A DNA stretch of 60,493 nt, counting the filler, from Sphacelaria rigidula (taxonomy: Eukaryota), in assembly GCA_964200075.2 (NCBI GenBank). It is 7 parts of 7 records of this genome, joined end to end, with 100 filler letters (N's around TTAATTAATTAA, not from the genome) between each part and the next. Parts side by side here need not be neighbours in the genome. Positions count along the whole stretch, not along the records: positions 8,658 to 17,214 come from CAXNAA020010785.1; 6 more parts are not named here. One strand, 5' to 3'. The notes under the pieces are model-generated. The model had not been told where the DNA came from and ran no database searches. It was given only the letters and a program-made list of their open reading frames with translations. Below, one piece after another: positions 1-59,000 of the stretch. A program made the translations under genes and the position numbers. Each line of letters begins with the position of its first letter. Position 1 is the stretch's first letter.

Positions 1-950
1 GCTCCGTCCCGGCTTTGTAGGAATGCGAGGTCAATGGTCTTATGACGATGGCATGCATGATCATGAGTACACCACCCCCCCACCCCCCATCGTAGAGTGA
101 CTCAACTAACACCCATCCCGAGGGGGGTGAAGGAACGCGAACTTTGGTCCCCCCAGATGCACTCGAGCTTTTTATATTAATCTGACTTCCGTGGTTGAAC
201 ATGTCAGGGCGTGAGCAGCCAAAAGAGTTCGTTTAACGAGAGTCGACGCGGGGTGGGAATGTTGGTCATGATCCAACCCGCAAGACCAAAATGCGAGAGC
301 GTGTTGCGGGGGAGAGGTGGGTTGATCCCTTGAGATCACAAAGTCATTCCGAGGCAGGGAAAGGGTTAAAAAAAGCATGATGGAATGGCGGGGGAACCTG
401 TTCAAGGATATACACTAGAGCCTCTTCTCCTCCCCTGCAGCCCTATCGAGGATATGTTAGTGTTTTCCTTGGGATCGATAGTTGCTCCCAGCCTGGTGTC
501 TACAGGTCAGCCCACCCTGTCCGTCTCTTTCGATTTTTTCCTTCACCATAAAATATATTCATCGAGTTTCCTTCTGCGAGAGTGTTCCCCTCCACTTACG
601 TTGGGTGTATACGCCTACCTTGAATGGTCAGGGCTAGTTTCGGTTCGTGGATTGGTCCATTCCACAATAATCGATCCATTCGATAAATCAATTGATTTTT
701 AATATAATATATATGTATATATATATATATATATATTTTTTCGTCACACTTCCAACCCTTCCCCTTCCTCGGAACGAATCCGTGGTCTCAAGGGATCAAC
801 CCGTCTTTCCCTCCGTGATTTACAAAGTACAGTCTTCAGCGAGTGTTTCAGTTAATTTGTCTCGGGTACGTCTTTCATGTGACCACGGCTGGACCCGTGG
901 CGGTCAGTTAAAGTGCGACAATCAATCAATCAGCCAATCAGGTATACAAA

Positions 951-1240: not shown

Positions 1241-3257
1241 TTGTCGTCTGTACCGATCAGTTACCCGGTGGTACTACGATAGCGGTGCACGACAACCTTC
1301 GCAGGTTTGAATGGTTAGGAGCCCTCCATCTCATCCAAAAAACGGTGCATCAAATACATGAGGAAGCCTACCACGGTTGGCATTGCAATGGGCTAGGGAT
1401 ATTCGGAAAAAAATCGAAAAACGGGATTTTTCCTTATACCCATGTTCTCGTGTACCTCCTCTAGTTTCATGAGCCCCTCAAAAGGAAGCATCGAGCTCCA
1501 AATGTGCAGCTCTACTGTGTGGTATGACTCTACCGTCTAGCACAACAACAGATTTAGAAATAGAGACAATCGATCAATTTAATGAACCGTTCGTCAATCG
1601 ATTTACGAAATACAATCACCGCTCGGTTACCTTCTAAGGCCACAGAGACGCAGAAACAGAATGGCCGAGAAACCTACAGCAATGTATCGTTACCTGCCTC
1701 GATTTTATCGAAGAGCCTACGTCTCCTGTGGAATATATAATTCCATGTTCAACTCTTGATTTGCGATACCTGCTTTCAACTAGGCCAAGATCTTCATGCT
1801 GTATGACACATGTAGGCTGTAAAACATATTTTGTTTTTTTTCATCCACATCACATATGACAGTGTGGTACATATACCTACCGAATATGCACTCAGACACA
1901 CGTATGCGTGCAAAGGATAGATATTCATTGAAACCAATGAATATGTATACATATATATTCCGCACACAAGATTTGTCAAAACACCTGGCCCACGCAGTAA
2001 TGCAACATTAACATTTTCGCTTATCGCGTGAAACCACGGCATCAGAGCGTTAGGGCAACACTACATTGACTGTATATGTATATACATATATATTTACAGA
2101 ATTCGCACCTCCAAGATAACGGGCTAAACCTAGAGCTATGCCGCGGTACCCTCCCCCTCCTCCCCCCCCAGAAAAGTACCATCTCCGGCTCGGAAGGGAT
2201 GCGTGGTCAACGGTCAAGCGACTAAGGCAAGCAACAAATGACTACGCCCCCGTCCCCCACCCCCAGAAAAGTGGAATGGGGACCGAGGAAAAATCAACCT
2301 GTGAGAATTTTTTATCTCGTTTCTGAAACCAGCTATATTTGCATTCTTCATGGTGGTTTTGCAAACGCTGGTTTCTGAAGCTATACTCGTATCCTTTCCT
2401 ATAGTTTTCAAGACCTGGTTATCAGAACCAGCTGTCTGCATTCTCCGTGAAATTTCTAGGACCTGGTTTCCGAAACCACCCATCATCTCGATGCGCGGTA
2501 TGACCATTTCTGCGCAACAGTTTTGTGGCCCATTTGGGGGCCCATCTGGGGGGGCGTACTCATTTGTTGCTTGCCTTAGTCGTTTGACGACTGGCCAATT
2601 TGGGGGTGGACGGCTGTCGCAGTATCACTAACTAGTAATATACCGACCTCAGTGCGGTGTTTTAAATACACTCCCTACCATAGCCTCCACCCAAGAAAAA
2701 TGGCTGGTTTGGGGGGGTAAATTCTACGCGGAAATCAGAATATGGGAGAAGCCGAGCACAACGAGCAGCTGGGTGGGAATTCCCACGCTTGCGTTCGTTT
2801 TCGTCAAAGTCGCCCATATGAGGCGCTTCATGCAACCTGCACCCAAACACCAGACGCTGTTGTATGACCATATTTTTCGTAACAATTTGGGACTGGTTTT
2901 GAGTGCGGGGGGGGGGGGGGGGGGGGAAGGGGGGGTATCGTACAAAGTGTCAAAACATGTCTTGGAACGGTCTATTCTATCGCGGCAATTACTCGGGGAC
3001 GAGGAGGCCTTCTGGCTACCCTGCTTCGTTCAGCAGGACCGCTGTGAGTGTTGGCGATGGAATAACTCTACAGCGATGAGAAATCACATATCCTGTGTGC
3101 GACGTGTGTCGAACCCCAAAAGCGAATCCATATTCTGGAAATTATTTGGTGTGCCGGAAGTGTATAATCTTGATATGCCGGACGTGTATAATCGTTATGA
3201 AGATACATACAGCAAAAAGTGAACGCCCAACTCGTGCAGCCAGCCTTGCAGACTACA

Positions 3258-3977: not shown

Positions 3978-4634
3978 TGTTATGGTATTTGAAGGAACTA
4001 GTGCTGGTAAGGAACCGAAGCACCCGGGGTGTCGGAGTAAATGAACGTTGGATATGACTCTTGGTCGGCTGTCGTGGCTCGTCAGCTTGCCTGAAGATAC
4101 AGATATACAATGTGTTCTGGATAGTCGATGGGAGATACAGTATGGTTGATGTCTGCTGCACATCGAATAATCATGTGCACAACGGAGAGTGTTCGCGGAA
4201 CGTCCGTTGGATGGAGGATTTCTGCTCTTTGGTTATTGTATCATGATTTGATACGGATATAACTCCTGCGTAAGGTAGTCACACAGTCGCCCCCAGCCCT
4301 CCCATGAGCACTTCATTTCGGGCCCAGGATATCATCAGCCTTGCCGCCGTTGCTCTGAGTTCCAAGGGAGTCCTTACCAGAGAGTTTGTGGTCGTGGGGA
4401 AACTACTGGCTGTGGTTCGTATTGTGACCTAGAAGGCGATAACTGTTTTTGTTTGTGTGAACACATGGATTCAACTGCTACTGCTGTTATTGGATCTCTA
4501 TTGATTTGCTGCACCCAGCTGTGCGCATTGCAACCTGGCACACACGGCTTGAGCCTCTGTTCGTGAGAACATATCAGGGCAAAGGTGGACCGAGGCTGCC
4601 TTCTCCAAGGCAATTGGCCTATAAGTGCATAATA
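3978..4634 (+). mobile_element. ~655-bp LTR-like unit; inverted partial copies at 4636-5147 and 5256-5590
   Basis: Starts TGTTATG and ends CATAATA, one mismatch from the TG...CA inverted terminus. 4636-5147 is the reverse complement of ~3978-4507, and 5256-5590 of ~4300-4634. Confidence 0.65.
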
Positions 4635-5726
4635 TAATCAATACAGACCTAAATCACAGTAGCAGCAATTTGGATCCAGGTGTTCACATAAACAAAATCA
4701 TCGCCTTGTAGTTTACAATACGAACCACAGCCAATAGTTCCTCCAAACTATGAAGCGTACTGGTAAGGACTCACTTGGAACTCAGAGCAACGGCAGCAAA
4801 AGCTGATGATGTCCTGGGCCCGAAATAGAGTGAGCTCAGATGGGCTCGGGGCGATGGTGTAACTACCTTACGCAGGAGTTACATCTGTATCAAATCAAAA
4901 TACAATAAGCAAGGAGTAGAAATCCTCCATTCAACGAACGTTCCGGGAACACTACCCGTTGTGCACATGATCATTCAATGTGCAGCAGACATCAACCATA
5001 CTGTATCTTCCATCGACTATTCGGAACATGAAATTGGATCTTTCAACAAACTGGCATGTCTCGGCGGCTAACCAAGAGTCATATCCAACCTTCATTTATT
5101 CCATCTTTATGTCCAGAGCGACGCTAGTTCCTTCAAATACCATAACATCTCAATACTCTACCCACGTATTGGGTAGAGTTGGGTACGATCTCAATACCCT
5201 ACCCAATTTTTGGGTAAAATTTGCATGATTTGAAAGTACGACATTTCAAAATACTATTGTGAACTTATAGCCTAGTCGCCTCCGAGAAGGCAGCCTCAGT
5301 ATACCTTTGTCCTGTTATGTTCTCACGAACAGAGGCTCGAGTCGTGTGTGCCCGTGCAATGCGCCGCTGGATGCAGCAAATCAATACAGACCCAAATCGC
5401 AGTAGTAGCGATCGAATCCAGATGTTCACAGAAATATATTATCTCCTCGTGGTCTACAATACGAACCACAGCCAGTAGTGATCCCACGACTATAAAGCTC
5501 ACTGGTGAGGACTCACTTGGAACTCAGAGCAACGGCGGTAAAACTGATGATGTCCTGGGCCCAAAATAGAGTGCTAATGGCGGGAGCTCAACGCCCAGAT
5601 GTTTGTCATCGAGAAGCTCCCTAAAGTGCAAAGCCTCAGAGAAAAAAATATGTGCACCCCTACCGTAGAACACCTAGCTCTTCATCATACCCCATTTTTT
5701 CGTGGAAATCGGATCGACTCGTACAG

Positions 5727-6076: not shown

Positions 6077-7950
6077 GTAAGGCGTTCAAGGATTTGGGGC
6101 GGCAGTGCCAAGGAGAGGAGACGGAAGTGTGAAAAAAAGGGGGGGGGGGGGTGGTTCAGTGCACCGCATTATTTGGCATTTCTACACACACATACACACA
6201 CACATATGCGGGCGCGCGCCATGTTCACCGAAACGTTCTTGTACAACACTGTGACTTCACCAATGCTCCCTTCACGGTGCTGTGATTGGATCATGACAAA
6301 AGTCCGTTTCAATACTCTCGTACCTGGCTCTTGTTCTGTAATGTCAAGGGAGGACGGGAGAGGGGGTTGTACTCGTGGTATTGCATGCCGTAGTCGAAAA
6401 CCATTATTGGCTTCGCATTCCTACAATGCCGGGACGGAGCACGCCGGGTGGGGGGGATTCTGGAAGAAGTCCTCAATACTGTGTGGGGATAAGTCTAGGC
6501 AGGGGATGTAAGTATCTTGTTCTTGTGTACCATAATACCGTATCTTGTGTAACAGCCACAGTTCATTTATGTGCATATATACGAAGTATATATATATATA
6601 TATGTACATATCGGGCTATCGAGGCTCATAAAAATAGGGCGACGCGTGCACTGCGCCAAGTTTACAGGGGGTTTTCGTGTGTTCGGATCCCACACTGCCT
6701 GGAGCAAAGCTTTCCGAACGCTCGAGGCGCCTACGCCACATGACTGCCGCGAGGCGATCTAGCCCAGCCTACGAGCAATCGGCATACGAACCCGTTCTCG
6801 GAATAAGTGCTGGGTGAGGTTTCCCCCTTTCTTTGGGGAGAGAAAAAACGTGACAATCGGGGCCGATAGGATGATGACGATACTCGGGCGTTAACTTCGT
6901 GTCAAATGTTTGAGGTCTATATTTTGTACTTACCGAATACGTCGTGTATGCGGTACATTAAGTGTACAGGTACAGTACCAGGTACAGAGATCGCACCCCA
7001 GCAATATTCGAGCTTTGGTTGTCAACACGCTCGTGAGCACGGCAGAGATCAGTCCGTCTCTACGCCGTGGAGACAAAACGGGGCTCAGGCATGCATGTCA
7101 TGAATTCCTCACCAACAGTTAGGCTGTTAACCATGCGCACAGTCGAGAGAACAGGGCATCATCGTCATCCTCTATGATAGGGGTATCGCAGAGGCCTAAC
7201 CGATGGGCTGGGGAGAGAACACAACAACTGCGCCATTAATTATTTTCGCGTTTCTGGCAGTCTTGCCCGGGTGGGGGCATCATACGCTCTGATTCCCGGC
7301 ATCGCCCTTAAAAACTGCGCACTGCTATCAGGGGAAACATGGTGTCATTTATCATGAATCGATTCTTCTGAACGGGCAGGGGGGGGGCGTACTCATGATC
7401 ATGCATGTCACAGTCATAAGACCATTGACCTCGCATCCCTGCAAAGCCGGGGCGGAGCACGCCGAGTTTTTGACGGACCAGGCTCGCATTCAACCACCAA
7501 GCGGGCAGAGGAGGTGGGGGGGGGTCTAAAAGGCAGGATACGATCGCACGTGCTTCATCCATTTTGTGCTGCTTTTTCTTCTACGGGTGATCGCGTAGTT
7601 AACCTAGCTGGAACCAAATTTGTGCATATACACACTCATACACACAAAGTTCTTTTTGTCTCGCACATCATATATATATATGGATACAGTCATCTCGAAA
7701 CCATTGCCGATCACCTCTCTCTGCGGACCCCTCGTAAACCTCGAAACACGCAAGAAATCGACGTCCCCCCTCATCGTCTTCCTCCCCTCTAGATATGTTG
7801 GCCCCGCCAGGAAAATCCGGGATGCAGAGCATTGAACGTTAAATGAATAAGGCTGTTCTTCCATCAGAATCTCGGGACGCCGGTAAACTTATGACTTCTT
7901 CAATATTGTCCCCCTTACTCGTTCCTGAACCAATCAATGATCCCCGCCAG

Positions 7951-8218: not shown

Positions 8219-8557
8219 CAACAAACGCGTTGACTTTTGTTTGGGGGCATGACTTTATACATTCGAATGAAGATCCTTGAGACTCGAACCAAGAGAGGAA
8301 TTTCTCTCCGGTAGGGGTGCACAATTCTTTTCTTAGGCTCTGCACCTCAGGAGCCTCTCGATGATGAACATCTGGGCCTCAGTATGCAGTCTCAAAAACC
8401 TTTTGGACTGAAAAGTGCACCGCTACCGTAGAATCACTCAAAGAGAGAGAGAGGGGCGTACTCATTTGTTGCTTGCCTTAGTCATTTGACCATTGACCAC
8501 GCATCCCTTTCGAGACGGAGCAAGAAAGAGAGAGGGGGGGGGGGGGGGGGGGGGGGG

Positions 8558-8657
8558 NNNNNNNNNNNNNNNNNNNNNNNNNNNNNNNNNNNNNNNNNNN
8601 NTTAATTAATTAANNNNNNNNNNNNNNNNNNNNNNNNNNNNNNNNNNNNNNNNNNNN
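8558..8657. other. Artificial contig linker N44-TTAATTAATTAA-N44 (also 17215-17314, 25871-25970, 34527-34626, 43183-43282, 51839-51938)
   Basis: Six identical 100-bp spacers contain a six-frame stop linker, and the intervening contigs are 8557-8555 bp in descending order. Confidence 0.97.
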
Positions 8658-8761
8658 GTCCGGCGAAAACCCGGCGTGCTCCGTCCCGGCTTTGTAGGGA
8701 TGCGAGGTCAATGGTCTGATGACTATGGCGTGCATGATCATGAGTACACCCTTCCCCCCCC
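8658..8761 (+). repeat. Short structured dispersed element, subfamily D (~90-100 bp, ends in a C-run)
   Basis: Copies at 1-80(+), 6360-6447(-), 7378-7470(-), 8658-8761(+), 8965-9010 (partial). Confidence 0.85.
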
Positions 8762-10336
8762 TCTCCGCCCGACACCCATGAGGTAGTGTATAAGCCATGG
8801 CTGTCCCTGGAAGCGGCGATACCAGATAATAAAGCAACTCAATGGAGACTGTGATCCAACTGCAAAATAATCAGTAGGCTTTGGGCCGAAACATCTTAGC
8901 AGGCTGCAGCTCACCCTCCATGCGACTCGCCGAACACACCACGGCGCTTCGCGCTTGNNNNNNNGATGACTATGGCATGCATGATCATGAGTACACCCCT
9001 CTTCCCCCCCCCGCCCCTCCTCGGAATGAGTCCGTGCTCTCAAGGGATCAGCCTATCTCTCCCTCGATACACGCGTCCTTATATTTTGGTATCGCGGACG
9101 GGATAAGCGCAGAGAGGACCGACACTTCTGCACTGCATCGGCTGTCGACAAACACAAACTCAGCCGAATCGACAACTTCCGCTGTTCACGTACGCCCTCA
9201 CGCTTCCAACGACAAAACAATCAGATAATTCTGAAAAAAAAGCAAAACGATGGAAGTCAGATACTTCTGAGGGAAAAAAAAACGCAATATGACGTCTCCG
9301 GCGTTAACCGATATCGCGTTTTCTCCGCCCTAATGATGTCCGCTGCATCACTTAAATTTAACACACTAGGTATATGTTTTGTGTATTTTGTAGCATTGAG
9401 ATGAAGCACTAGGTCCAAGTCGACGTCCGGTACAACCGCAATGGCCAGCTTAAAGCCACCCGTACACTTGTATTCCTCTACCTGGTGCCTGCAGAATGTT
9501 CAAGTACCCGTGTCGAGGTACTCGCCCTCCCCCCTTCCTCAAGCAGAAAAGGAAAGAAAGAGATATACCAGTAGTCGAGTGGAGGAGGCAGTATTTGCGC
9601 AGAAGTGACCATGTGACAAAGCAACAGAGAGTAGAACTCACACAGCGGCAGAATGTGGACTTTACAAGGAGGAACGGGACGTTTTAGAGAGAGAGATGTG
9701 GGGAGTAGACGAAGATGGTATGGGATCGTTTGATGCATTACACCGTACCGCAAAGATCCCTCCTAGCGGTTAGCTTCTATGCGAGACGTGAATCACACGA
9801 ACGACAGAACACGGGATAGAACATCTGCATCACGTGAAACAATTTACCCCAACACTGTCAGATGTCCCACCGAGCTCAGGGTCAGTTGCCCAAACGTTAC
9901 AGATGTTGTGTGTCGAGCATAGAGCAGCGTTTCAAACGGTGTCCGGTGTTCCATTCAGTTCAGAACGTGTCTTGTCAAGTAATTTTTCGACCCAAAGAGT
10001 GCGACGGAAAATAACAACTCCGATCTGATAGGTCGCCATTTTCATGTAAACGACATGGACATAAAATCACAAACCTGTCCTGACCTGTCAGATCGTATTC
10101 TCTCTTATCCGCCGTACCCCTTTGATGAGAAAAATATTTTCACGATACACGGCCTGAGAAGGAAATACGAGTTGCGCAAGCGTTGGCGAAACAACGACCA
10201 AGTTCGAAGGCCAATGACGCTTTTTAGGAACAAATTTATCTCGCGTCATGCAAAAAGTCTGTTTTATTGCAAGAGGTAAAACAAGCTAATAATGCTTCGG
10301 TTACCGTCTGCAACTACAGCAACACCATTGCCGGGG

Positions 10337-10767: not shown

Positions 10768-11143
10768 TGTGTTGTTGTGTGTTGTCGTCCCATCTATTCT
10801 GGACGACGGTCTACAGCTTTCGGTATATGTGGGCGCACCCGCCGGGGTCACACAGGCGGAAGGTAAACACAGGAGCTTTTCCTTTTTGTTCGTTCGTTTG
10901 TTTTTGGCAAATATTTCTCCACTTTCCTTCTGCGGTGCTTGCCTGTATTTTTTCATCACGGGAGGAGTTCAGCAATCCCTTTCCCTCGTCGACCATTAAG
11001 TCGAATGTTGTGTACCCACGATAAAGTTGCTCTTCACAGTTGGGCACTGTGTGAGAAAAATCCCAGAACGCTTCGAGATCCGAATTCACGACTCAACCGT
11101 CAGAAGATTTCGAGGTTATCAACTGAGCCACCGGGGCGACCGG
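10768..11143 (-). mobile_element. SINE family A, full-length copy
   Basis: Reverse-complement tRNA-like head at the right end (ccggggcgaccgg) and a TG-rich tail at the left end. Confidence 0.85.
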
Positions 11144-11177
11144 CATCTCTTGTAGGATCGATTATTCGTGAACCCAC

Positions 11178-17008: not shown

Positions 17009-17592
17009 CGTTTTACCTCTCCCCTTCCTCAGGATACGTCCATAGTGTCAAGTGATCGATCCTTTCTCTCTGCCCTCCCCCCAGTACAGGACTGCTCCGT
17101 CTCGAAAGGGATGCGTGGTCAGTGGTCAAATGACTAAGGCAAGCAACAAAGGAGGACGCCGCGCCCCCCACCCCCCCCCCCCCCACCACACACTGTCCGC
17201 GGCCAGACATAGAANNNNNNNNNNNNNNNNNNNNNNNNNNNNNNNNNNNNNNNNNNNNTTAATTAATTAANNNNNNNNNNNNNNNNNNNNNNNNNNNNNN
17301 NNNNNNNNNNNNNNACTGGCGATTGCCTTGGGCTTTTTCGCCTGCCACGACTCATTATATCTAGGATTCAAAGATACTTGAATCCGCTGCACACTTTCCA
17401 CAAAAACAACACTGTTTGGAATATAGAGTGACTCATGGGCTTACGGGCTGATTTGTCATCGACAGTCCTGCCATGTCTCAATCCAGATTCTGACTCTTGA
17501 AAAGTTTCCCTTGATCGGGTGACGTGGTGACGTGTAGCGTGTGACGACTCGTGTGTCACGCTTTTGCTATCGAACTTTCGACTTCGGAAGTG

Positions 17593-17732: not shown

Positions 17733-18726
17733 TCAGCGGGCAAACTGAGCGAATTTTGTAGATGGGTATTTTTGGAGATGTTTCGCGTACCTGCCGCTTA
17801 TCACGCTGAAAGTTTGATTTCATAGTCTCGGGGAGCGGGAGATATTAGGATCCGCTTCGTTTTTCGAAAAAAAAAGTGCGTTCAATACCGAACGACTGAC
17901 GAGGTGGCCGGTTCACGGGGGTCCTCCGACTACACAGCCCCAGGTTTTGACTCTTCGATATTTTTCTCGATTGAACCAAACCTGATCGTTGTCGTGAACA
18001 AATAGAAAATGCTGCTTTTCCTGAAATTATACCTTTTCACTGTGCTAGAGCCGAAAAACTGTGTTCTTTGGACAGATAACGGTCGATGGCACCCTACTGA
18101 CACACGAGGTCTCTACTCCGTATCACCCCGACAACACTAACTGGGGGATTCCGCCCCGAGCACAACCTTTTATTTACCCAATACCTACGGACTCTAGCAC
18201 GGTGAAGTGCTGAGAGAAATAACATGCGAGGGAATAAAAAGAGATCCACTACATTACAAATTCGCCCACTTTACCCGCGGACCATCATTAAAATAAGAAC
18301 CTTTGCCGACAACTTCGGCTAATGAAAACATGAACACAGTGTGAACCGGAAATTGAAGAAGTAGAAAACCAAGTCGCACAACTCAAGCAGGTTACCTGGA
18401 AAATCTGCAGAGTGCGCAACCCACACGAAGCACTTCGTACCGGCGACAACAGCATCGGAAGACACATTGCGCATTGCCATTCAGGAGACAGCGCAGGCGG
18501 TAATTCGACGGAGCGAACCAACCGTCGGAAACAAACACAAGCACACAAAACATAAAAAACCGACCGAACGATAAAAATAGACGAGGAACGAATCCGACAA
18601 GAGAAAAATCTCGCATTCGAGTGCACGCGCAGCTCTGCGATTTTCTGGACCAAAGCCTGACGATTACGCCCAAACACACTATATCCATCCATCCTACGGG
18701 TGACACGACAAGGAAGGGGAATGTTA

Positions 18727-19080
18727 TGTGTGTTGTAGTCCCAATTATTTTGGACACCGGTCTACACCCTTCTGTATATGTGGGCGATTCAGTCGGGGTT
18801 AAACAAGAGGAAGGCCAATGCAGGATTTCTGTTCTTCTTAATTTGTTCTAGTACCCCACCTTCCTTTTGCGGTGCTTGCCTTACTTTTTTGTCGCGAGAG
18901 GGGTTCGGCGGTCCCTTTTCTTCGTCGACCGTTCAGTCGTATTTTGTTCACCGACGACATAGCCACTCTCCATTGTTGAGCATTGTGTGAGAAAAACTCC
19001 CACATCACTCCGAGATTTGGACCCACAACCCAACCGTACGAAGGTTTTGAGGTTACCAACTGAGCCACCAGGGCGATCGG
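18727..19080 (-). mobile_element. SINE family A, full-length copy inside SPT4 intron 2
   Basis: Matches the family along its length; the head lies ~36 bp from the SPT4 exon 2 donor. Confidence 0.85.
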
Positions 19081-19116
19081 CTTGAATGAAAAAAAAAAAA
19101 AGTACAAAAATCTTAC

Positions 19117-22132: not shown

Positions 22133-24377
22133 GTATGTATTGTACAGCCAGGACAATCAAGGGGCAGTACAGGTATCATACGGCCAGTGGATCCTCGTGC
22201 CCGCCAAATGTAAGTGAGAAGGCTCACAAGAACATGTTTAGCACCGATAATTCAGAGCAGGCGCAACTAGCCCTTGGGCTCCCTTCTTACGACCTGCAAT
22301 ACTGAAGTTCTGCTAGCAACGGGTGCTTATTTTGGCCATTTAGCGATCTTCTCCGACGGTCACAAGGGCTGTTATTAAGCCGCTTCTTGTATTCTGAAAA
22401 AAGTCGCTGTAAGGCCGTGTCTTTCGTGTGTGTGTGTGTGTGTTGTCGTCCCATCTATTCTGGACGCCGGTCTACACCTTTCAGTATATGTGGGCGCACC
22501 AGCCGAGATCGCACAGGAGGAAGGTCAACACAGGACTTTTTGCTTGTTTGTTTGATTTAGTTGTCCACCTTCCTTCTGCGGTGCTTGCCTTTATTTTTCT
22601 TATCGCGAGACGGGTTCAGCAGCCCCTTTTCCCTCGTCAACCGTTGAGTCGAATTTTGTGTACCCACGACATAGTCGCTCTCCACGGTTGAGCAATGTGT
22701 GAGAAAAAATTCCAGATCGCACCGAGTCTTACGCCGATTCTTCCGGTTCGCTTTTTCCCTCGTTTTTAGCAAATAACGAGGTAAAAGTACGAGATGGCTA
22801 CTTACGGTTCGTGTTTTCACAAGATTCTCGGGAAAAAAGTTATTAGACGAGGGAAATTCTCCAGTACGAGATGGGCCCTCCTGGCTTGTATTTTTGGAAA
22901 AAATACGAAACGAGATCGACCGATCGACTTGTATTTTTCTCTCGTTTTTTCATTCGCCGCGCGGCGAGACTAGCAACGCCCGCCAGCCCTGAATGTGCTT
23001 GTGGCCTTCGACATGTGCGGGGCTCTCCTGACAGCAATGTCGAACATCGCCAGCGCCGTTTACACACTAGACCAACCTTTGCTTCGCCATCCCGGCGAAG
23101 GCGAGATGCCGTCAAGGGTTGATAACCTATTGGCATCGACCGTGCTCTCGAAAACCTGCAGCACAGATACTACCCAGGGCAGAGACTACAGGATACTGTC
23201 TGTGCTGTCTCGTGCAGTGAAATGTAGGTGTCAGTTTGCATACAACAGTATACATGCGCACATGTCAAGTTAGAGACGGTAATATACAACGGCTGCTCTA
23301 AAATTGATGTGGAGGAGTGCAGTACAGACAGCGCTAGACAATACAGTACAAATGTCTGTACAACCGCATACGTGATACGGTAGTAAAGATAGATTGGAGA
23401 CATCAGGTTGCACACAGTGCGAGCTGGGAGCGGGGCCAGCAGCGATCGGGGGAGGTCTGTGTATCACGTCTTCTTAAACAAACACAGGAAGTTTGGCATG
23501 GCGAAGTCTTTAGGTCTTTGAGCCTCGCCTTGGCATGCACACCCCTTTGAATTCCACTGACCGTATTTTTGGTACCTCCCCACTCTTTTGGTACCCCACC
23601 CCCCTCAAAAATATATCTGGAACCGTAAGCTAGGGTCAACATCTGTGATAGTATTTTCCTAGCGGTACTTTTTCCTCATAGTTTGTTTGAAAAAACAAGG
23701 AGAAAAAACGAACCGGAAGAATCGGCCTTAGACCAACTTTTATGGCAACGAATCTCGATATATTTGAGACCTCGATTTTGAAAATATCGGGGGAACTAAA
23801 ATTCGCAAACTCAAAATCGGGAGGACCGTTCCATGGTACATACAACAGTACAGTACCACAGATTTGTGAGACGGTTCTGTACACAAACGGTCATTTTCTG
23901 CATGAGTGTGGTACTGCGTATTCATGCATGAAGCCGAAGAGTAGGCAGGCGGTGAACAATCCTTCGAGCACAGTGCCGTACCTTAGTACCTCAGGGTAAT
24001 ACAGTGCAGGACACTCCATCAGTACAGCACATGATAATGCCGTGTGGTAGTACATGATGGCACAGTCGGTATTGCGAGAACAGAGAACAAAAAGTGCACG
24101 AGAAGAGTTCAGTAGTGCAGTGCCGTACATCACCCCTCAAGTAAAGCGACAACAGCTAGGAGAGTACAGTAGCGTTCGTTACAGTGATACATCTGGCAGC
24201 GCAGCGCAGCATAAAAATTATCATCGCCGCAGGGTACGGCGTCAACACTTATTATCCGCTTGTCAAACCCCGTGCGAAGCTGCTTCAGCAGCTGGCGCGG
24301 GCGGTAGGCACGCCCTGCGCTGTCACGAGACTGTCTTCTGCTGCCGTTGCAAAAATATCAAACGCCTCGTACCCCAC

Positions 24378-24601: not shown

Positions 24602-26859
24602 AAAAGTTGGTCTTAGCACATCATTTTTCGATCGAAAAAGGGCGGCGGATAACAAAAATCCCGATCTGATAAATCGTGATTTCAACCATCTTCAAAATTA
24701 TTGACGATGGTTGAAATCACGATCTATCATATTGGGATGCCTATTTTCCACCGCACAATTTCGATCGAAAACCAATGGCTAAGACACACCCTAAGACGGT
24801 ACATGGTCACTCGTTCGCGTACAGTACAGACAGTCTGTACTGTCTGCACTGCTTGTGTACGTGTTTCGTACAAGAAGATATTAAAGAGAAGGGCAAAGTG
24901 GAGTCCAGACAGCCCAGGACCGTCAGTTCTCTCTGCTTACAATGCGACGTGAAAAGAACGTCGGCAACGTGCAGCTTTGTACTGCCTGCACTGTCCATGA
25001 GCGTGCACGCAACTCGGTTGCGCACCGTACCACGCGGTTCGGTCGCTGATCCCTACCATGTTCTTGCAAAGAAGATGCGCAAGCTCTCGCCAACAAAAAG
25101 TAAATAAAGTGTAGCCAACTACTGCAATGTGTCTGTCCTTGGGCTCAATACGTGCTCTATGCTGCAGGGTTGTGGTGGTAGCTGAGAATGAGTTCGATGG
25201 AGTTTGCATGGTCCTGTGAGCAGGTGTTATCTGGCATGGTGGTCTCTAAGATAGGGGTCAAATGCCGCTTCGTGCCTTTCGACCGCATGTTTTCGATCGA
25301 AAATGATTATTTTCTGTGTCGAATAGTTTTCCTCCGCGCGCCACTAATTGTAATTTTGACTTGAAGCCTTCTAGGAACATAAATGCGGTGGAACTATCAG
25401 ATCGGCAACAAAAGAGATCGACCGCACGTTTTCGATCGAAAAAAAAGGGTGCTAAGACACGCCCTAAGCCTACTTCGTATGTATAAAAAACCAGTGTCAG
25501 AAAACGCGTTTTCCGATAACAGGCCAAAACCCTACTTCTTACGTGATGAGAAAACGAGTTTTACGATAAGAAGTTTTTTGGGTTGGGGACTGGCGCTACG
25601 CGCCAGTACCAGGTAAGCTGGCTGAGGAGAGCAGCCAGTTTACTGGGCCCTATCAGTACATTGGTGTCGCGGCGAAGCCGCGACCACCGCCACCCCCGGC
25701 TGGTGAGGGGGCCCCGCCGGAGGCGTATTTTTACGCGATCTGGCTTCACTAGAAGATATTTTTTGGGTGATTTTGGGCAACTTCGATGATGTCTGCCCGG
25801 GTGTGAAAACGTTTCTTCTCGAAATACTTGTTACTATACCCAGAGAAAAACTTCAACAATCGTGATTCGCNNNNNNNNNNNNNNNNNNNNNNNNNNNNNN
25901 NNNNNNNNNNNNNNTTAATTAATTAANNNNNNNNNNNNNNNNNNNNNNNNNNNNNNNNNNNNNNNNNNNNCCCACATATACCGAAAGGTGAAGACTGGCG
26001 CCCAGAATAAATGGGACGACAACACACACGCACACACGCACACACACACACACACAACTGTGGACACATCAGAGTAAAAAAGGTATCTCGAACTCGACGT
26101 TCCCTGCATATTTCGCAATAATCAAATCTTTTCTGGACGCCAGTTTACAACTTTTGGTACATGTGGGCGCATCAGCCGGGGTCACACAGGAGGAACGCTG
26201 AGACCATCCGTTATAGCAGTCACCAATCTCGATTTTTCCGAGTATCGGGGGAAAAAAAATCGGAGAACGTATTTTATGGGACCCGATATGGACAAAATCG
26301 GGGGAGAAAAAAAAACGTGGAGTGCCACGATCTCAGAACGATTTCCCCCGATTTTTCGGAAAATCGGGGGAAAGCTGAGGTCCCCCTGACTTTGACGTGA
26401 CATACGTGCTTTGACGTACAATGAGAGGGTACGAGGCGTTTGATATTCTTGCAACCCCAGCAGGAGACATTATCGTGACAACGCAGGGCGCGCCTGCCCG
26501 CGCCAGCTGCTGTAGCAGCTTCCCACGAGGTTTGACAAAGCGGATAATACCTGTTGACGCCGTACCCTACGGCGATGGTAATATTTCACACCCTGTACGA
26601 CAATAGTTGGTAGTTGTTTCTCAAACAACTAAATTTGGTTGGTTACAGTTGAAAAAAAATGAAAAATGATGATGGCGAAGGGGTTGGGTGCTGGCGAGAC
26701 AGTTTGACATGTCGGATAGACAGAGAGGCGGATCTTCTGCGTCTGGGAGAATATGGGAGGTTGCAGATGAAATTGGCTGAAGAGAAAAATATTCAACGTT
26801 CGAGAAAATTTGAAATTAGCCGAAGAGCTCGAACGTGAAGCGGTTGTACACATACGGGT

Positions 26860-27445: not shown

Positions 27446-28294
27446 AATGGGAATAAATGTTCACACCCCAAAAATCCGACTTGACAGTCGACGAGGGAAA
27501 GGGACTGAAGAACCCCTCTCGCGATAAAAAATAAAGGCAAGCGCCGCAGAAGGAAGGTGGGGTACTAAAAACAAATAATACATAAAGACTCCTATGTTGA
27601 CCTTCCTCCTGTGTGACCCCGGCTGATGCCCCCACATATACCGAAAGGTGTAGACGGGCACCCAGAATAAATGGGACGACAACACACGCACAACACACAC
27701 ATTACAGTTTTTGGTTTGTTTTTTTGTTCAAGTACTTGCATTTTATTCATCGCGGGACGGGTTCAGCGGTCCCTTTCCCTCGTCGACCGCGAAGTCCAAT
27801 TTCGTGCACCCACGACATCGTCGCTTTCCACTGCTTGGCATGGTGAGAGTAAAAATCCCAGATCGCGTAAACTCACCAAGATTCTAACCCACGACCCAAG
27901 CATCAGAAGGTTTCGAGGTTACCAATGACTGTGCCACCGGGACGATACATCATGATGTATCAGTAGATCACGGTATCAAATGCCGTATCAAAACACGGGA
28001 CTTGACAGATTGCGGATAGTTTCTTCTTTGAAGATGAACCTTCGGAACCTTCAAATAAGCATCGGCGTATCATCGAAAACAATATAAAAATGCACTCTTC
28101 GGCCGTGATGCGTGACCTCTCTCATTCGGGGTATGGGTGGATCCTCATATCCCCCGATTTGGGGGGATGTAACATTTTCGGTTTGGGACCGTGATATTTC
28201 AGTGATACGGGATTTTAGCCTATTCCGCTAATGGAACACACCAAAAACAGTTAATGCACCATGCGCTTTAGCATTTGATGCGGAGGGGAGAGAG

Positions 28295-29440: not shown

Positions 29441-32044
29441 ATAATCCTTCGACGGCCGGAGGTGGTCTGTTGTGGAATCGGCATGACTTGCATTCGTTTC
29501 TCATGTGAAAGCGATGCCAAATTGCACAAAATAGATCCACCTGCGGCGGTCGAACGGGTTAAAAGGTGTCAAGTCATTTGTAAGATCCTCGACACTAAGG
29601 CCGTACCTTACCATTTTTTTTTGTTTTCGAACGAAATAGTGCCGCGGAATTAAAATCGTTTGTTGGGCACGGTTTGGCTCCGAGCAAACTTGAAAGCTTT
29701 CCATCTGAAAAAGAGGGTGGAATTCGTGAGGCGGCTACTGGTTCGGTTGTATTCAGTATAGACAGCATGACGTGAAAACGAAGCGAGCGATATGAAGTAC
29801 AGACAAAACAGGGATGTCTGTATCCTTTGCATACAGGATGCACGCCGATAAGATTTGTTGAATAATCACTTGCAATTTTGTACTGCCTTCACTATCCATG
29901 AGCGTGTACGCAATTCGGTCACCCACGCCTACCATGCGATTCCGTCGCTGGACCCTACTAGAATATAAGGCGCTAAAGTTTTCGCCCACAAAAAATAAAC
30001 ACATCGCACCGAGAAGGTGACAGTGTCGGTTCCCACCGTCACAGTGCAGTGCATGCATCCCTGTGCTCAATTCGTGATCTATGCTGCAGGGATTGATTGA
30101 TAGCTGAAAAGGAACGGTGTGGGGTTTGCATGCTCCTCTGAAATGGTGGGGTATCTGACATGCTTGTCTCCAAGATGGAGTGAACCGCCCCTTCGTTCTT
30201 TTCCGCCGCGTGTTTTCGACCGAAAAAACTGAGCTTTCCTGCTTCTCACCCTGCCGGTCTGTGCGCCAGAATGTTGGACGTGTCTCTATTAGGAGTAGGA
30301 ACGGTTCTCCGTCTCGAAAGGGATGCGTGGTCAATGGTCAGACGACTAAGTCAAGCAACACATGAGAACGCCACGCCCCTGCCGGTCGCGCGCAAACACT
30401 TATAAAACGGACTTGCAGCTATCTGAGAACATTAATGCCGCTGGCGTATCAGATACGAGCTATTTTGATTCCACCGCACTTTTTCGATACGAAAAAAAAT
30501 GGCAACACACTGCCCAAGATAAGGTCGTGCCCTAGCGATACCAATAAGAGGAGCGGAAAAAAAAAAAAAACGTCCAAAGAGCAGCATGGATTGATTAATC
30601 GCCGGGCGGGTACACGACCTGATTTTCATACAGATGTTTCCGAATCAAGTGCCCGAGCTTCGTCTTTGTTCTTTAGAAAGAATGCAACAGCTCTCTACTG
30701 CACGCAGTCTACTGCCACGGGGGTCAATAATATCATCCATCATTTTTTGTCACATGATATCGAGAAGTCGTTCATGACGCCCGAAGTAACCAGTGGCTGA
30801 GAATCGCTTCGCGTGCTCGGTTCCACCGGCTTCTTCGGGGTCCCGCGTAATATATACCGTCCATGATCGCGGAATAATTTCACTCCTTGAATGACGCCCA
30901 AGCTCACCGATATCGAGGAATTTCTTACGGGCTGGTCCAGGGTTGAATACCCAAAATTCATTCCCCTCTAGATACAGGAGGTAAATCTGACACGATAAAA
31001 AATACATCTGGTATCACCGTGAGACCCCCATGAGTAAGCCAACAGTGTGACATGACCAGATTTCTTCTTGCGCTGGTAGTGACGATGTTCCTCGGCCAAT
31101 CAGGGGTCTTCAAATTGTTCTGAAGCCAAAAGTGCGAATTCCCGACACAATTTGCACCCAATCTCATCACCAATCTAATCTTAGTAATAACCGGCATCAG
31201 CGAGGGAATCCAGCGCCGAAAACAGATTTGAAAACGGTTGGTATAGGATCGAGTTATACCCCAAAAAGCGGTATTTCGGTGTATGTGGGGTTTTGGCGTC
31301 ATCAGATTCCCACTGATAATATGCACCGAAGACTCGAATAATTTTGACATTTTCCCTAGTAACTTTCGTAGAATAGCTCCGATCATCCTCAAGCGTGGCA
31401 GTTTGGAAGATATTTGGCGAAGAGGAAAATAAATAAATCAAAGGCCCCAATCGTACAGCCGTTCTAAATATCTATCAGGGTACGCGTGTGCAAAATTTCA
31501 GGGTCTCACTCGAAATCCCCCCGTCGAAAACCGCTGAGGAGTAAATTCCAGTCGTTTACCCCGAACCAGCCTGTACCTCATCCGTTTTCACCGCTTTATT
31601 GGGGTCCCCGGCCGCCAAAAATTGCTCGGGATCCTGGGACCCTTGAGACCAAGGGAAAAAAAAAATGATCTCAACTTTGACGCCACCTCTAGAGGAAATG
31701 TATGGAGTTGTGTCGTACCATCCAACACGAGAGAGGAATGGACCCGAAGAGACTTTCGGGGTTCTCGTGGACCACCGTGAAACAAGTTCTCGGAACATTT
31801 TTACGTCTGCTTATTTTCTCACGCCGTTGTGAAAAGTTGAGCATCGAAATTGCAGAGAAGTATATCTAGAGTCAAGCCTTTCTTCACCCCTGTTTGTGCC
31901 GCACAGCTTCGCCGATTTCTCGCGCTCCGTTCCACAGTGTGTGTGACAATAGTTTTCCTCGGTTTCACCGGTTTCTCGAGGCCCCCTATGAATTCTGGGC
32001 ATGACCCCAAGAAACCAGCGAAACCAACCGAAACGGAGATTAGT

Positions 32045-32235: not shown

Positions 32236-34848
32236 ATCATAGCATCCTCCCAAGTGGTAACTATACTCACGAAACGACATGAGCACAAACACCGATGAGC
32301 TCTGGATTGACTTCAGGAACACATGTCGTGTCACTTCGTCTCCAAACTTTCCAGAATGGTGTAAGAAATGGCCGTTGGCTAAATATCTTGGTACTTTCGA
32401 GGACAGCATTCGGTATCTTCCTATATTTCATTTTCCAAGTTGCTTTGAGATTGGACGGGAGCTTCTGTACCATTGATCCGATGTATCATGAGGAGAGCCG
32501 CGGACTTTTCGCGTGGATGGCATTGGAACGGGAAAATACAGGAAGAGGTCAGGACGGGACGGAAGCATTTGCCAGTCACGCGAAAAATCAGGATGTGACG
32601 GCAAGGCAAGACGGGATCGCCACCCTCCAAGAAAAACGTACAGGACTGTCGAGATATCCCGTCCATCCTCAAATCTCACGGAAGGAACCAATCGCGTCCC
32701 GGAAATGCTCATCTCGTCTCATCATGATCATCACGGGACAAACGACCCTCGTCTAGTGAGATTCCAGTTCCGTTCCCACGTGGAAACAACACGCAACTTT
32801 GAACAATTCAGACTACTGTCGATAGAGGCCAGCGTGTCGTGTCTGACATTTACAATCTAGGTCGGACCATGGCGTAAAAGCACGAGCGGGAGAGGAAAGA
32901 CCGGGGAAATGCGAATCGCTGTCAAAGGACCATTATTTTCACCCGCCACGCCTGTTGCTTTGCCCTTAGCAGCAACTGTGACTGTCTCAGATGCGTGGCA
33001 GCGAAAATCCGGGAAGGACTCGTTGTTTTGACAGAAAAGATTGGAGCCAATTATCCTGAAGTCGACTGGAGGTCAAACACAAGAAAAAACTGCAGCCCTC
33101 TACCCCGCCGCCTTCTTCTCCGGTGTATGACACCGTGAAAATTCCACCTTGGTAGATATTTTGCAGGACTTCCAACGAGTGTCAAAACCGACTGCTCGTT
33201 TTCCGCTGAATCACATTCGACAGGGATTAGGAATGTCAATCCTTTGTCGAAACCTCGGGGCCATCCCCGACAAGTTGAAAACCAAGACCCCAAAACAGCA
33301 TACAGTAACATGACTAGGTGGTCGAAATTCACGGCAACATGGGCGGCCGGGAAGAAAGCCACCGGTGAAAAAAGGCAGGAAAAGGAGGAGACATGGGGAG
33401 ACAACCAGAGAAACCAGATTATGAAATGGACGTACCCTAGCTGCCGCCGATGGCGCGGTACCACACGCGCTGGTGGTGCTTGCTTTGTTTCCTGTACAAG
33501 TTTTCTGTTTTTCCTTTGTGCGTTTGTTCTTCTCACCGCTCTTCACTGGATGGAAATCTCACGGGACAATCATGGGGAGAGCACGGGATGGCCCGTTCCA
33601 TCCCCTGTCGACACATCATCATTCTTTCCAGCCTGTCCTGGTACCTTTTTCATCAACGGGAAATGAATCGGCCACGCCCCGTCGTTTTTCCAGCATTACG
33701 CTTCCAATCCTATCCTCTCGCGACAAATTTACAAAATTGCCGTCCGGTGCCGAAAATTATTCAAGCGGCGGGAAGAGTACCGTCTTGACGCCTTTACAGT
33801 TTTTCCCGTTCCCACCCTGTTCTCACGGGATATCCTCAACCTCTTACCGAGAATGTCAAGGGACGTGTCGTACCATCCTCACCAGATATCCCGTGCATGT
33901 GATATAATGTTTTGAATCAAATCCAGGCAGAACATGGCCGAGTACAGTACTATATTATCCATCACCAGCTGCTATTTTGTCCCCGACTTGTACGGTACCA
34001 AGAAGCTGTCGTGGAAGTACCATCGCTGCCTACTGTACTGGCCCCGAACCATCACCGGGGAAGCATGCATGGGCAATGGGGAAGCTGTGTACGCTGACAG
34101 AATGAGAAATATATCATGTGCAACTTTCATCCATGCCGATTTGGGACACTTTCATACCACAAGCGCACGCTCGTTTCAGCTTTTCGTCCGTTTGCAGCGC
34201 ACACGTACAACAACGAGCACACAGTGCTGACATGAACCTCATGATCACAAGGAACGCACGCGGAATGTTGGGGGAAACGATCGGTGAAGTCAAAAAGCCA
34301 CCAGCCAACCAGGATTTCTTCAGGTAGTGATGAGATGTTAGCTTCTCTTGTAGTTGGTGGAGTTCACTGATGCCAGCAATGCATATTCCTATTTTCCTTC
34401 GATTGAATCGTCGCTACCGCCTATCCTTTCTCGTCAAAACTGCTGTTGGTTGCTTTATTTCAAGGGTCGGACAAATAATGATTTGTCTGGAAATTACTTG
34501 GTTTTAGTATAATGAGTCGACTCGTGNNNNNNNNNNNNNNNNNNNNNNNNNNNNNNNNNNNNNNNNNNNNTTAATTAATTAANNNNNNNNNNNNNNNNNN
34601 NNNNNNNNNNNNNNNNNNNNNNNNNNCGCGTTTCTGGCCATTTTTCGTACCTTTCTTAGGCAAAAAACAAGAAGGTATACCTTTTCTAGGCCATTGCCCT
34701 AGATATATAGTTAGATAGGCACGACAAGGAAGGGTGGGTGTCTGCTACAAGTAGCTATGGTGTACGTGTATTGAAGTAGGCGCGCCCACTCACGGTCTGT
34801 GTGTATGTGTATATGTGTGTATGTATATCCAATCTACGATATCCTTCG

Positions 34849-35214
34849 AGTGCGTGTGTTGTCATCCCATCTCTCCTGGACGCCAATTTACACCGTCCGG
34901 TATGCCTGGGCGCATCAGCCAAGGTCGCACAGGAGGAAGGTCGCACACAGCAAGTGTCATATTTTACGTTGTTCTAGTTCCCCGCTTTCCTTCTGCGGTG
35001 TTTGCCTTCCTTTTAATCGCCGGAAGGGTTCGGCGGTCCCTTTCCGTCGTTGCCGTGAAATTAAACCTCGTGTAGTCACGATATAGTCACTCTCCACTCG
35101 TGAGCATGATGTGACAGAATCCCAGGTCGTGTGACTTACTTCACCGAGATTCGAACCCAAGTCCCAACCGCCACAAGGTTTCGAGGTTACCAACTGAGCC
35201 ACCGGGGCGACCGG
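34849..35214 (-). mobile_element. SINE family A, full-length copy
   Basis: Head gattcgaaccc...aactgagccaccggggcgaccgg and the family body. Confidence 0.85.
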
Positions 35215-35707
35215 CTCTCTAGCAGTGTGCCACATTTTGCGACTTGTGACGGCCGTTTTTACCACTTAGCGGGTGATCCCAATGCATCCATCAATATGTT
35301 ACACAAGCTCGTGCGTTAACGATGCCTACACATCGATAAAAAGACCCCTGGTGCTGGGTTGCTGTCTGCTCCTAAAAACAGTATCGTACATACTTTCACG
35401 TGGGTTTCGATATGCTACTTCACAACAAGAACCGAAAACAATAAAAAAGTCTCTACATTACTTTTGAATCGAGGGTACACAGGATGACTGATATCTTGTA
35501 CCTACGAAAATATGGGAGATGATTCGCCATTTCCAAGATACCAGGTTGTTACGAGAAGTGCCCCTTCGGCCTGCAGAAAACGTGGATACGTTTGAAAGCT
35601 CCGCTCTGAAGCTTTTCTTGCTTTACTCGCATGTGCTTCAAAAATTGATCCTGCATCTAGCGTTTGGAGTGCGCCTGGTTGAACAATCAAGAGACAGTGC
35701 CCGTCAC

Positions 35708-51242: not shown

Positions 51243-51311
<69 letters not shown>
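51243..51311. repeat. (GT)n microsatellite, the expanded tail of a SINE A copy
   Basis: Uninterrupted GT run abutting the SINE A 3' end. Confidence 0.95.
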
Positions 51312-51315
<4 letters not shown>

Positions 51316-54965: not shown

Positions 54966-55144
54966 CAAATGACAGTCTCGTGACGGGAGGGGGCTGATGA
55001 AGTCACGGTAGAGTTTGTTCGAAAAGCTGATGACATGTGTGTCCCCCCCACCCCTCCCGTGCTGGCGCCCGCGCGCGCGCCGACACACGCTCCGCACTTG
55101 CCGCTCTCTACCGAAAAAAACAATCTTCACAATAAATACAAAAG

Positions 55145-57665: not shown

Positions 57666-57804
57666 GCGGGGGGCATACTCATTTGTTGCTTGCCTTAGTC
57701 GTTTGACCGTTGACGACGCATCCCTTTCGAGACGGAGCAAGTACTCATTCGTTGCTTGCCTTTGTCATTTGACCTTTGACCATGCATCCCTTTCGAGACG
57801 GAGC
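57666..57804 (-). repeat. Short structured dispersed element, subfamily C (~70 bp), tandem pair
   Basis: Two adjacent copies. Others at 2181-2251(+), 2548-2597(-), 8454-8522(-), 17093-17170(+), 30306-30380(+). Confidence 0.85.
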
Positions 57805-57844
57805 GATGAGGTTAGGGGTTGAAAAGTTGTAGAATTCGTTCATA

Positions 57845-58830: not shown

Positions 58831-59000
58831 TACACCCTGGACAATATATGGTCAATGGATGCAATAGATCAAAGAGGTACAGGAAAAGGTATAGGACTGT
58901 TGCAACTATTGTCGATCGACAACAGTTGCACTAGGCTTATACTTCACTCAGTACAGTTTTGGTCTAATGCATCTATTGATCATATACTGTCCGGAGTGTA
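58831..59000. mobile_element. Palindromic Tc1/mariner-like MITE inserted in (TA)n
   Basis: TA|CACCCTGGACAATATATGGTCAAT ... ATTGATCATATACTGTCCGGAGTG|TA, with a central palindrome at 58901-58930. Confidence 0.8.

What the first reader, a model, noticed from the sequence alone, without database searches (positions are those of the whole stretch)
8658..8761. Two related 70-100-bp dispersed elements conserve a strand-specific three-stem fold while their loops diverge
Seen: subfamily C (7 copies, TGCTCCGTCTCGAAAGGGATGCGTGGTCAAYGGTCAAAYGACTAAGGCAAGCAACAAATGAGTACGCCCC) and subfamily D (5 copies, GGCGTGCTCCGTCCCGGCTTTGTAGGGATGCGAGGTCAATGGTCTTATGACTATGGCATGCATGATCATGAGTACRCCC) align end to end. On the C-tailed strand both fold the same way. 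The closing stem is (GGCG)UGCUC/GAGUA(CGCC). P2 is CGUYCC-like/GGGAUG, capped by GAAA (GGAA in the 2181 copy, still GNRA) in C and by a 9-nt loop in D, with a U-G to C-G change. P3 is GGUC/GACU with loop AAAY in C and UUAU in D. Every stem uses G-U pairs, which would be A-C mismatches on the other strand, and the C/D differences concentrate in loops and the junction. Inference: the structure is selected as RNA or ssDNA. It could be an undescribed minimal mobile RNA or ribozyme-like unit, or a recognition end for a single-strand transposase, rather than an ordinary TIR.
Basis: partly seen in the sequence, partly recalled or inferred. Interest (0 to 1): 0.7.

Follow-up and report, generated by a model that had tools for sequence, protein, structure and literature searches.

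The report
Folded 3′ tail of algal LINE
The two short repeats are the cut-off 3′ ends of a known kind of brown-algal retrotransposon and of its non-coding hitch-hiker; what looks new is that their shared RNA fold is written into the last codons of the reverse-transcriptase gene and that over half of the short copies begin exactly where the fold begins.

Summary
The repeats are real but are not stand-alone elements. C is the last ~20 codons, stop codon and 5 nt of an endonuclease-RT LINE, plus a C tail: 14 of 23 RT loci carry it 1.03-1.14 kb downstream, in frame. D is the 3′ end of a ~560-nt non-coding partner. Single copies sit between 10-20-bp C-led target duplications, as expected of target-primed retrotransposition, not TIRs. 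The architecture matches Ectocarpus RTEX-1/2 and RTEX-N1 ((C)n tail, C-rich TSD; PMC12477816 supplement). P2 and a longer P3 arm stay paired across five lineages, with four double-sided changes. P1 shows none, and folding z-scores are unremarkable. It is most likely the RT's recognition tail, not a ribozyme or transposase end. Unexpected: 40 of 71 unselected C copies start 62-68 nt from the end, at the base of P1. Long D copies pile up at ~95-104 nt, below an extra hairpin. That pile-up, which I did not find described, is why the tails look like discrete 70/100-bp elements.

The parts
8658..8748 (+). D copy: last 91 nt of the non-coding partner element; 5′ end lost at the contig edge
8676..8681 (+). 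P1 5′ arm (pairs with 8742-8747)
   Evidence: no double-sided change seen
8682..8702 (+). P2 hairpin, 6 bp with a 9-nt loop
   Evidence: 6 of 6 pairs kept in C, D and both L277 elements
8707..8729 (+). P3 arm: 3-bp helix (8707-8709/8727-8729), internal loop, 5-bp helix (8712-8716/8721-8725), variable 4-nt loop
   Evidence: 47 of 48 cells paired, 2 pairs with double-sided change
8742..8747 (+). P1 3′ arm, the last conserved bases before the tail; in the LINE it overlaps the stop codon
8749..8761 (+). C-rich tail, running into the target duplication
8771..8995 (+). Second D copy, ~295-nt class, 5′-truncated, inserted next to the first copy's tail; assembly gap at 8958-8964
8457..8522 (-). C copy of the 66-nt class (LINE ORF C-terminus + stop + 5 nt), C/T-rich duplication on both sides; different contig from 8658
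   Evidence: 100% to residues 1342-1360 of P0002
7388..7501 (-). D copy of about 115 nt with C tail (5′ limit read by eye)
6368..6449 (-). Older, diverged D copy
1..71 (+). D copy at a contig start
2182..2246 (+). C copy, ~65 nt
2555..2598 (-). C copy truncated inside P3
17093..17158 (+). C copy, 66-nt class
30255..30370 (+). Longer C copy (~115-120 nt) that still carries 35 codons of the LINE ORF
   Evidence: residues 1325-1359, 74%
57674..57806 (-). Head-to-tail dimer of two 66-nt C units with no C tail between them
9516..9755 (+). Decayed internal fragment of the same LINE ORF (cysteine-knuckle region)
   Evidence: residues 1216-1292, 51%

Best explanation
C and D are 5′-truncated retrocopies. 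C is the 3′ end of an APE-endonuclease/RT LINE of the brown-algal RTE-X type, and D is the 3′ end of its ~560-nt non-autonomous partner (shown). The shared ~66 nt fold into a three-way junction, which in the LINE overlaps the last ~20 codons and the stop (P2 and P3 supported by comparison, P1 inferred). The fold is the stringent signal the LINE protein binds, which is why the non-coding partner keeps it (inferred from known SINE/LINE tail pairs). The endonuclease nicks the G-rich strand of a genomic C-run, the G-run primes on the RNA's terminal Cs, slippage gives a variable C tail, and the second nick 10-20 bp away gives the duplication (products shown, steps inferred). 5′ ends pile up at the edge of the folded domain: 62-68 nt in C, ~95-104 nt in long D copies (shown). 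Most likely the template has been trimmed 5′→3′ back to the folded, protein-bound tail (my odds ~45%); RT stopping at that boundary ~35%, separate short source elements ~15%, self-cleavage ~5%.
For: In-frame ORF end: 14 of 23 RT loci with at least 1.1 kb of downstream DNA carry C on the same strand 1,026-1,136 nt after the RT anchor, 17 of 23 within 1.5 kb; 7 of 30 had too little DNA. APE motifs lie upstream; full-length relative P0002 (77% class) has Pfam Exo_endo_phos + RVT_1 in one ORF. Ectocarpus proteins are 52-63% identical over the RT and group with this family apart from the genome's RTE-type RTs. Duplications: 29 of 69 C and 13 of 37 D copies, against 0-3 in each of 20 mismatched-flank controls. 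A CCCC run lies just upstream in 84 of 108 copies against 351 of 4,000 random 30-mers. Lengths run continuously from ~20 to over 900 nt, all sharing the 3′ end. PMC12477816 supplement lists (C)n 3′ ends, C-rich TSDs and a 604-607-bp partner sharing the last 60 bp. Fold. Pile-up: 40 of 71, 8 of 21 and 22 of 41 in three samples. Both alleles of loop position 28 occur in short (28 C, 13 T) and long (15 C, 4 T) copies, against one short master.
Against: Folding z-scores are weak. The covariation rests on six sequences, and both double-sided P3 changes come from one distant locus; 15-21 of 500 shuffles reach the observed values, which is suggestive only. The Ectocarpus-like L277 LINE breaks the loop-closing pair of P3. 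P1 is invariant, competes with an upstream hairpin in the full LINE RNA (probability 0.18), and in L276 cannot be assigned uniquely. Conservation between LINEs may partly be protein constraint. D has no pile-up at its own P1 base (0 of 24 at risk), and 24 of 37 D copies end within 52 nt, which I do not explain. No intact LINE copy was found among the 144 RT matches listed, and identity with RTEX-1/2_Ec32 could not be checked by sequence.
Confidence: 0.85

Rival explanations
1. The fold is incidental. The tail is conserved because it codes the protein's C-terminus and because D took it recently; recognition is by primary sequence and the C run.
For: z-scores near zero; few independent lineages; the terminal peptide motif recurs in 18 of 76 homologs (one search lists 19 rows, one a loose match).
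Against: Non-coding D and the L277 partner keep all P2/P3 pairs while loops change length and sequence. Non-synonymous changes (C/R, Q/L/H) keep pairs or fall in loops. L276, 41% identical in protein, has double-sided changes in P2 and P3. 5′ ends track the predicted domain edge.
Confidence: 0.15
2. The 66-nt and ~97-nt units are separate tail-only SINE-like families with their own source genes and start sites, moved by the LINE.
For: Sharp modes at 66 (C) and 97-99 (20 of 24 non-edge top D hits end at 95-104); full-length D starts at the same point as the ~97-nt unit, through a direct repeat of its 5′ half; one tail-less 66+66 dimer.
Against: No diagnostic base seen at the one polymorphic site tested; 5′ ends spread over 62-68; ARAGORN finds no tRNA head in 5 loci with long D copies; I saw no convincing A/B box by eye.
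Confidence: 0.15
3. The unit is a self-cleaving ribozyme that cuts at its 5′ edge.
For: 5′ ends pile up at the 5′ base of a ~66-nt fold; 5′ HDV-like ribozymes are known in other non-LTR elements (recalled).
Against: No Rfam match on C or D at gathering score or at E up to 5. HDV, hammerhead and pistol layouts tried by eye lack P1/P1.1 or stem II. Both hairpin loops vary freely, so there is no conserved pseudoknot. Cleavage would cut the LINE's own ORF. D does not end at the same site.
Confidence: 0.04
4. One arm of a cut-and-paste transposon, or an HUH/Helitron end.
For: Short self-complementary ends (P1).
Against: Single copies are bracketed by variable 10-20-bp duplications; variable 5′ ends with a fixed 3′ end; in frame with an RT ORF. 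The apparent inverted pair at 8457/8658 lies on two contigs.
Confidence: 0.01

Closest known systems
RTEX-1_Ec32 / RTEX-2_Ec32 (Ectocarpus RTE-X LINEs; PMC12477816, Supplementary Material 3)
   Same: Single EN-RT ORF, (C)n 3′ end, C-rich TSD, thousands of mostly short copies; Ectocarpus proteins 52-63% identical in RT with the same terminal motif.
   Different: Another species (244-Mb assembly). The main text has no hit for hairpin, stem-loop, secondary structure or C-rich, and its annotation table none for hairpin, stem, structure or ribozyme. The library FASTA could not be read, so orthology to a named family is untested.
RTEX-N1_Ec32 / RTEX-N2_Ec32 (non-autonomous partners, 604-607 and 188 bp)
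   Same: ~560-600 nt, non-coding, last ~60 nt shared with the LINE, C-rich TSD, tandem occurrence, 5′ head of unknown origin.
   Different: Here the 5′ head is a direct repeat of the 5′ half of the terminal ~97-nt unit, and many copies are only that unit; neither is noted in the rows I read.
Stringent SINE/LINE tail pairs with 3′ stem-loops (eel UnaL2/UnaSINE, SART1, plant L1/SINE; review PMC3747384, passages read)
   Same: Shared folded 3′ tail recruits the LINE machinery; short repeat tail used in slippage.
   Different: Those passages place the signal in the 3′ UTR as a hairpin; here the UTR is 5 nt and a three-way junction lies in coding sequence. Green-algal RTEX tails listed there are (CA)n, (CAA)n, (CCAT)n and similar, not (C)n.
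Mammalian L1 (poly-A tail, T-rich nick site; recalled)
   Same: APE nick in a homopolymer run whose freed strand pairs with the RNA's homopolymer tail.
   Different: G/C instead of T/A, and a specific folded tail is shared with the partner.

Membership tests
APE-type non-LTR retrotransposon (LINE) | ORF with APE endonuclease and RT | tested here: met
   RT upstream of C, APE motifs, Pfam on the close full-length relative P0002
APE-type non-LTR retrotransposon (LINE) | Fixed 3′ end, variable 5′ truncation, simple-repeat tail | tested here: met
APE-type non-LTR retrotransposon (LINE) | Variable-length target-site duplications | tested here: met
   29 of 69 and 13 of 37 vs 0-3 in controls, 10-20 bp
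Ectocarpus-type RTE-X (RTEX-1/2_Ec32) | (C)n 3′ end and C-rich TSD, single EN-RT ORF | tested here: met
   P0002 is one 1,360-aa ORF; the 5′ end of this genome's element was not mapped
Ectocarpus-type RTE-X (RTEX-1/2_Ec32) | Sequence match to the named consensus or to Repbase RTEX RTs | not testable with these tools
   FASTA supplements unreadable; no Repbase or Dfam; the tree shows only grouping with Ectocarpus proteins and separation from RTE-type RTs
SINE (for D) | LINE-derived 3′ tail, non-coding, TSD | tested here: met
SINE (for D) | Pol III head from tRNA, 5S or 7SL | tested here: not met
   ARAGORN 0 genes in 5 loci; no Rfam match on D tails; the 5′ head itself was not run through Rfam at low stringency
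Known self-cleaving ribozymes | Match to an Rfam model or conserved catalytic core | tested here: not met
   loops variable
Known self-cleaving ribozymes | Self-cleavage in vitro | not testable with these tools
   needs a bench assay
TIR transposon / MITE | Paired inverted ends, fixed-length TSD | tested here: not met
HUH / Helitron end | No TSD, terminal hairpin plus fixed short motif | tested here: not met
   10-20-bp duplications present

The most novel reading that the evidence does not exclude
RTE-X LINEs of this lineage carry an old three-way-junction RNA signal inside the end of their RT gene, shared from brown algae to a distant clade (41% protein identity, different tail repeat). The folded, protein-bound tail resists 5′→3′ decay, so a ~66-nt decay fragment plus Cs is itself the commonest template: a minimal, self-delimiting cis signal for G-primed insertion at C-runs that also seeds the genome with new C-run targets.
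Probability: 0.3. Interest if true: 0.65.

Novelty: new member of a known kind. Interest (0 to 1): 0.4.

Why it matters
The identity corrects an annotation trap: thousands of 66-100-bp 'elements' in brown-algal genomes are LINE tails. The extras matter to retrotransposon biologists. Half of all insertions stopping at one structure-defined point gives a natural map of the minimal RNA signal, and a direct test of whether 5′ truncation can come from template trimming rather than RT fall-off. A compact signal inside coding sequence and G-primed insertion at C-runs would also be a simple contrast to L1's poly-A route. The elements sit at 18 of 92 C-runs of 8 or more in a 254-kb sample, so they probably feed the G/C homopolymers at which this assembly often breaks (inference).

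Tried and rejected
Rfam on the window (gathering) and on 8 loci (E up to 5): nothing on C or D; two weak snoRNA hits elsewhere in L276. HDV-like, type II hammerhead (the CUGAUGA variant is in 50 of 136 D copies, and lacks stem II), pistol, tRNA-like/RNase P and 5S-like readings were tried by eye from recalled consensus layouts and dropped. A cDNA snap-back model for the pile-up predicts a stronger peak in D, whose P1 is longer; 0 of 24 at risk were seen, so it was rejected. An intrinsic flavivirus-type xrRNA fold is unlikely because no loop is conserved enough for a pseudoknot. Pattern and protein scans of viral contigs found nothing; the prokaryote collection gave one LINE end in a MAG. A second RTEX-like family was sought in this genome with the L277 end and only C and D were recovered. 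Sequencing runs: no RNA holder listed, and only contigs were available, so expression and RNA ends are untested. No earlier finding of the scan matched. The cluster look-up gave no organism names for the distant clade. The random-contig sample is 20 contigs plus the window, smaller than planned. Literature searches for a C-tailed LINE or a structure-linked truncation peak returned only the Ectocarpus paper as directly relevant; subscription journals, Repbase and Dfam were not searchable.

Full report
Observation. The window is seven ~8.6-kb contigs joined by N spacers, from a 244-Mb, 27,214-contig eukaryotic assembly. Its closest named protein relatives are from Ectocarpus, so I infer a brown alga. 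Genome-wide, exact 3′ motifs occur 3,209 (C) and 2,566 (D) times, equally on both strands, with 0 for reversed controls. The 8658 copy starts at a contig edge, and the nearby inverted C copy is on another contig.

What C is. Upstream of some C copies lies an RT-like reading frame. Of 30 loci fetched for that RT, 23 had at least 1.1 kb of downstream DNA; 14 of these carry C on the same strand 1,026-1,136 nt after the RT anchor and 17 within 1.5 kb. The majority frame runs through a cysteine knuckle and through C to a TGA, followed by 5 nt and a C run. APE-endonuclease motifs lie upstream. A close full-length relative is one 1,360-aa ORF with Exo_endo_phos and RVT_1 domains, and the window's C copies translate to its last 19 residues at 84-100%. 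In a FastTree RT tree the family groups with Ectocarpus proteins and apart from this genome's RTE-type RTs, which are 27-36% identical.

What D is. D is the end of a ~560-nt non-coding element whose 5′ end repeats the first ~50 nt of its terminal ~97-nt unit. ARAGORN finds no tRNA head in 5 loci.

Insertion signature. In copies chosen only by their 3′ motif, target duplications of 10-20 bp were detected in 29 of 69 C and 13 of 37 D copies, against 0-3 when flanks were mismatched (20 controls each). The detector needs four non-C bases and so misses all-C sites. A CCCC run lies within 30 nt upstream in 84 of 108 copies against 351 of 4,000 random 30-mers. Among 25 resolvable sites the tail is longer than the target's C run in 13, equal in 3 and shorter in 9; junctions show microhomology in 11, extra bases in 11 and are flush in 3. 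Copies often land in each other's tails (8 cases plus one tail-less dimer). This is what target-primed reverse transcription gives if a nicked G-run primes on terminal Cs; the steps are inferred, the products shown.

Known kind. PMC12477816 (passages of the main text, the first part of the annotation table and searches of its supplements) describes Ectocarpus RTEX-1/2 as single EN-RT ORFs with (C)n 3′ ends and C-rich TSDs, and RTEX-N1 as a ~600-bp partner whose last 60 bp are 83% like the LINE's. The architecture matches point for point. The FASTA supplements that would prove orthology could not be read. PMC3747384 (passages) gives the general rule that stringent LINEs and their SINEs share a stem-loop tail. 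Other papers were seen only as search listings.

The fold. Single-sequence evidence is weak: sense z-scores are -0.13 to -1.27. Comparative evidence is better. I compared C, D, an Ectocarpus-like LINE and its partner (L277, 52% protein identity to the query) and a distant LINE (L276, 41%, AT-rich tail) from metagenome contigs. P2 keeps 6 of 6 pairs in the first four, with loops of 4-13 nt and one double-sided change, and 4-5 pairs in L276 with further double-sided changes, one of them at the same pair. P3 is best drawn as a longer arm: 47 of 48 cells pair in 6 sequences, two pairs change on both sides (both in L276), slid controls pair 15-58%, and 15-21 of 500 shuffles reach the observed scores. 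That is suggestive, not significant, and L277 breaks the loop-closing pair. Frequent variants within families fall in loops, bulges or the junction. In contigs from three other organisms the listed fixed differences inside the unit lie in the P3 loop, apart from changes private to my reference copy; 11 rows were not shown. P1 has no double-sided change and drops to probability 0.17-0.18 when 90-98 nt are folded. The terminal peptide motif recurs in 18 of 76 homologs and tolerates C/R and N/D/Y swaps, which suggests it is the shadow of an RNA signal; I lack their DNA to test this.

The pile-up of 5′ ends. Among C copies picked by the 3′ 22-mer alone, 40 of 71 non-edge copies (8 edge copies dropped) begin 62-68 nt from the end, mode 66. 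Independent samples give 8 of 21 (20 random contigs plus the window) and 22 of 41 (bystanders in D loci). Pooled, 67 of 105 copies that reach 62 nt stop by 67, against 0-18% in the other 6-nt bins; the pool may count a few copies twice. Position 66-67 is the first base of P1. D shows 0 of 24 at its equivalent position (Fisher p 1e-9). Instead, 20 of 24 non-edge top-hit D copies end at 95-104 nt, at the base of an extra predicted hairpin, while the unselected D sample shows only a moderate rise there (7 of 18 at 98-109). Loose ends in three other organisms' contigs show C-runs directly before the same two points, though both sit near breaks in my reference. Both alleles of the one polymorphic site occur in short and long C copies. 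I favour trimming of the RNA back to the folded, protein-bound domain (~45%) over an RT stop there (~35%), separate short sources (~15%) or self-cleavage (~5%); none is tested. Unexplained: 24 of 37 D copies, but only 11 of 71 C copies, stop within 57 nt.

Verdict. A new member of a known kind: the 3′ tail of an Ectocarpus-type RTE-X LINE and its partner. I did not find the coding-region three-way junction or the structure-linked pile-up in the searches made, which do not cover Repbase, Dfam or subscription journals. Interest 0.4.

Noticed in passing
window 8558-8657, 17215-17314, 25871-25970, 34527-34626, 43183-43282, 51839-51938: 100-nt N spacers with a central TTAATTAATTAA at ~8.66-kb period: joins between unplaced contigs, an assembly artefact.
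   Followed up: yes
window 10768-11144, 18719-19081, 22429-22718, 27471-27864, 34845-35215, 42677-43176, 51298-51584 and others: Another dispersed family of ~400 bp, 60-90% alike, on both strands; one end looks tRNA-like by eye (recalled pattern), so probably a SINE.
   Followed up: no
window 4113-5028: 230-bp inverted arms, 86% complementary, 456 bp apart; MITE-like.
   Followed up: no
window 54430-55023: Tandem array with a 61-bp period between E/D-rich low-complexity stretches.
   Followed up: no
window 58811-59020: 105-bp arms, 80% complementary, with no spacer.
   Followed up: no
L278 near 5300-5345: A more distant LINE (36% identity) with a ~420-nt 3′ UTR and (TAA)n tail has a hairpin resembling the P3 helix just before the tail; homology untested.
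   Followed up: partly
LINE positions 76-81 from the 3′ end: A second copy of the P1 3′-arm motif can pair with the P1 5′ arm, so P1 may be a switch that forms only once upstream RNA is gone.
   Followed up: partly
L311 1-557: A C-tailed LINE end in a record titled uncultured bacterium MAG: probably algal contamination of that bin.
   Followed up: partly
20 random contigs plus window (254 kb): 18 of 92 C-runs of 8 or more follow one of these tails directly; many copies lie at contig ends.
   Followed up: partly
L091-L120: The genome also holds many RTE-type LINE and Gypsy-type RT copies.
   Followed up: no
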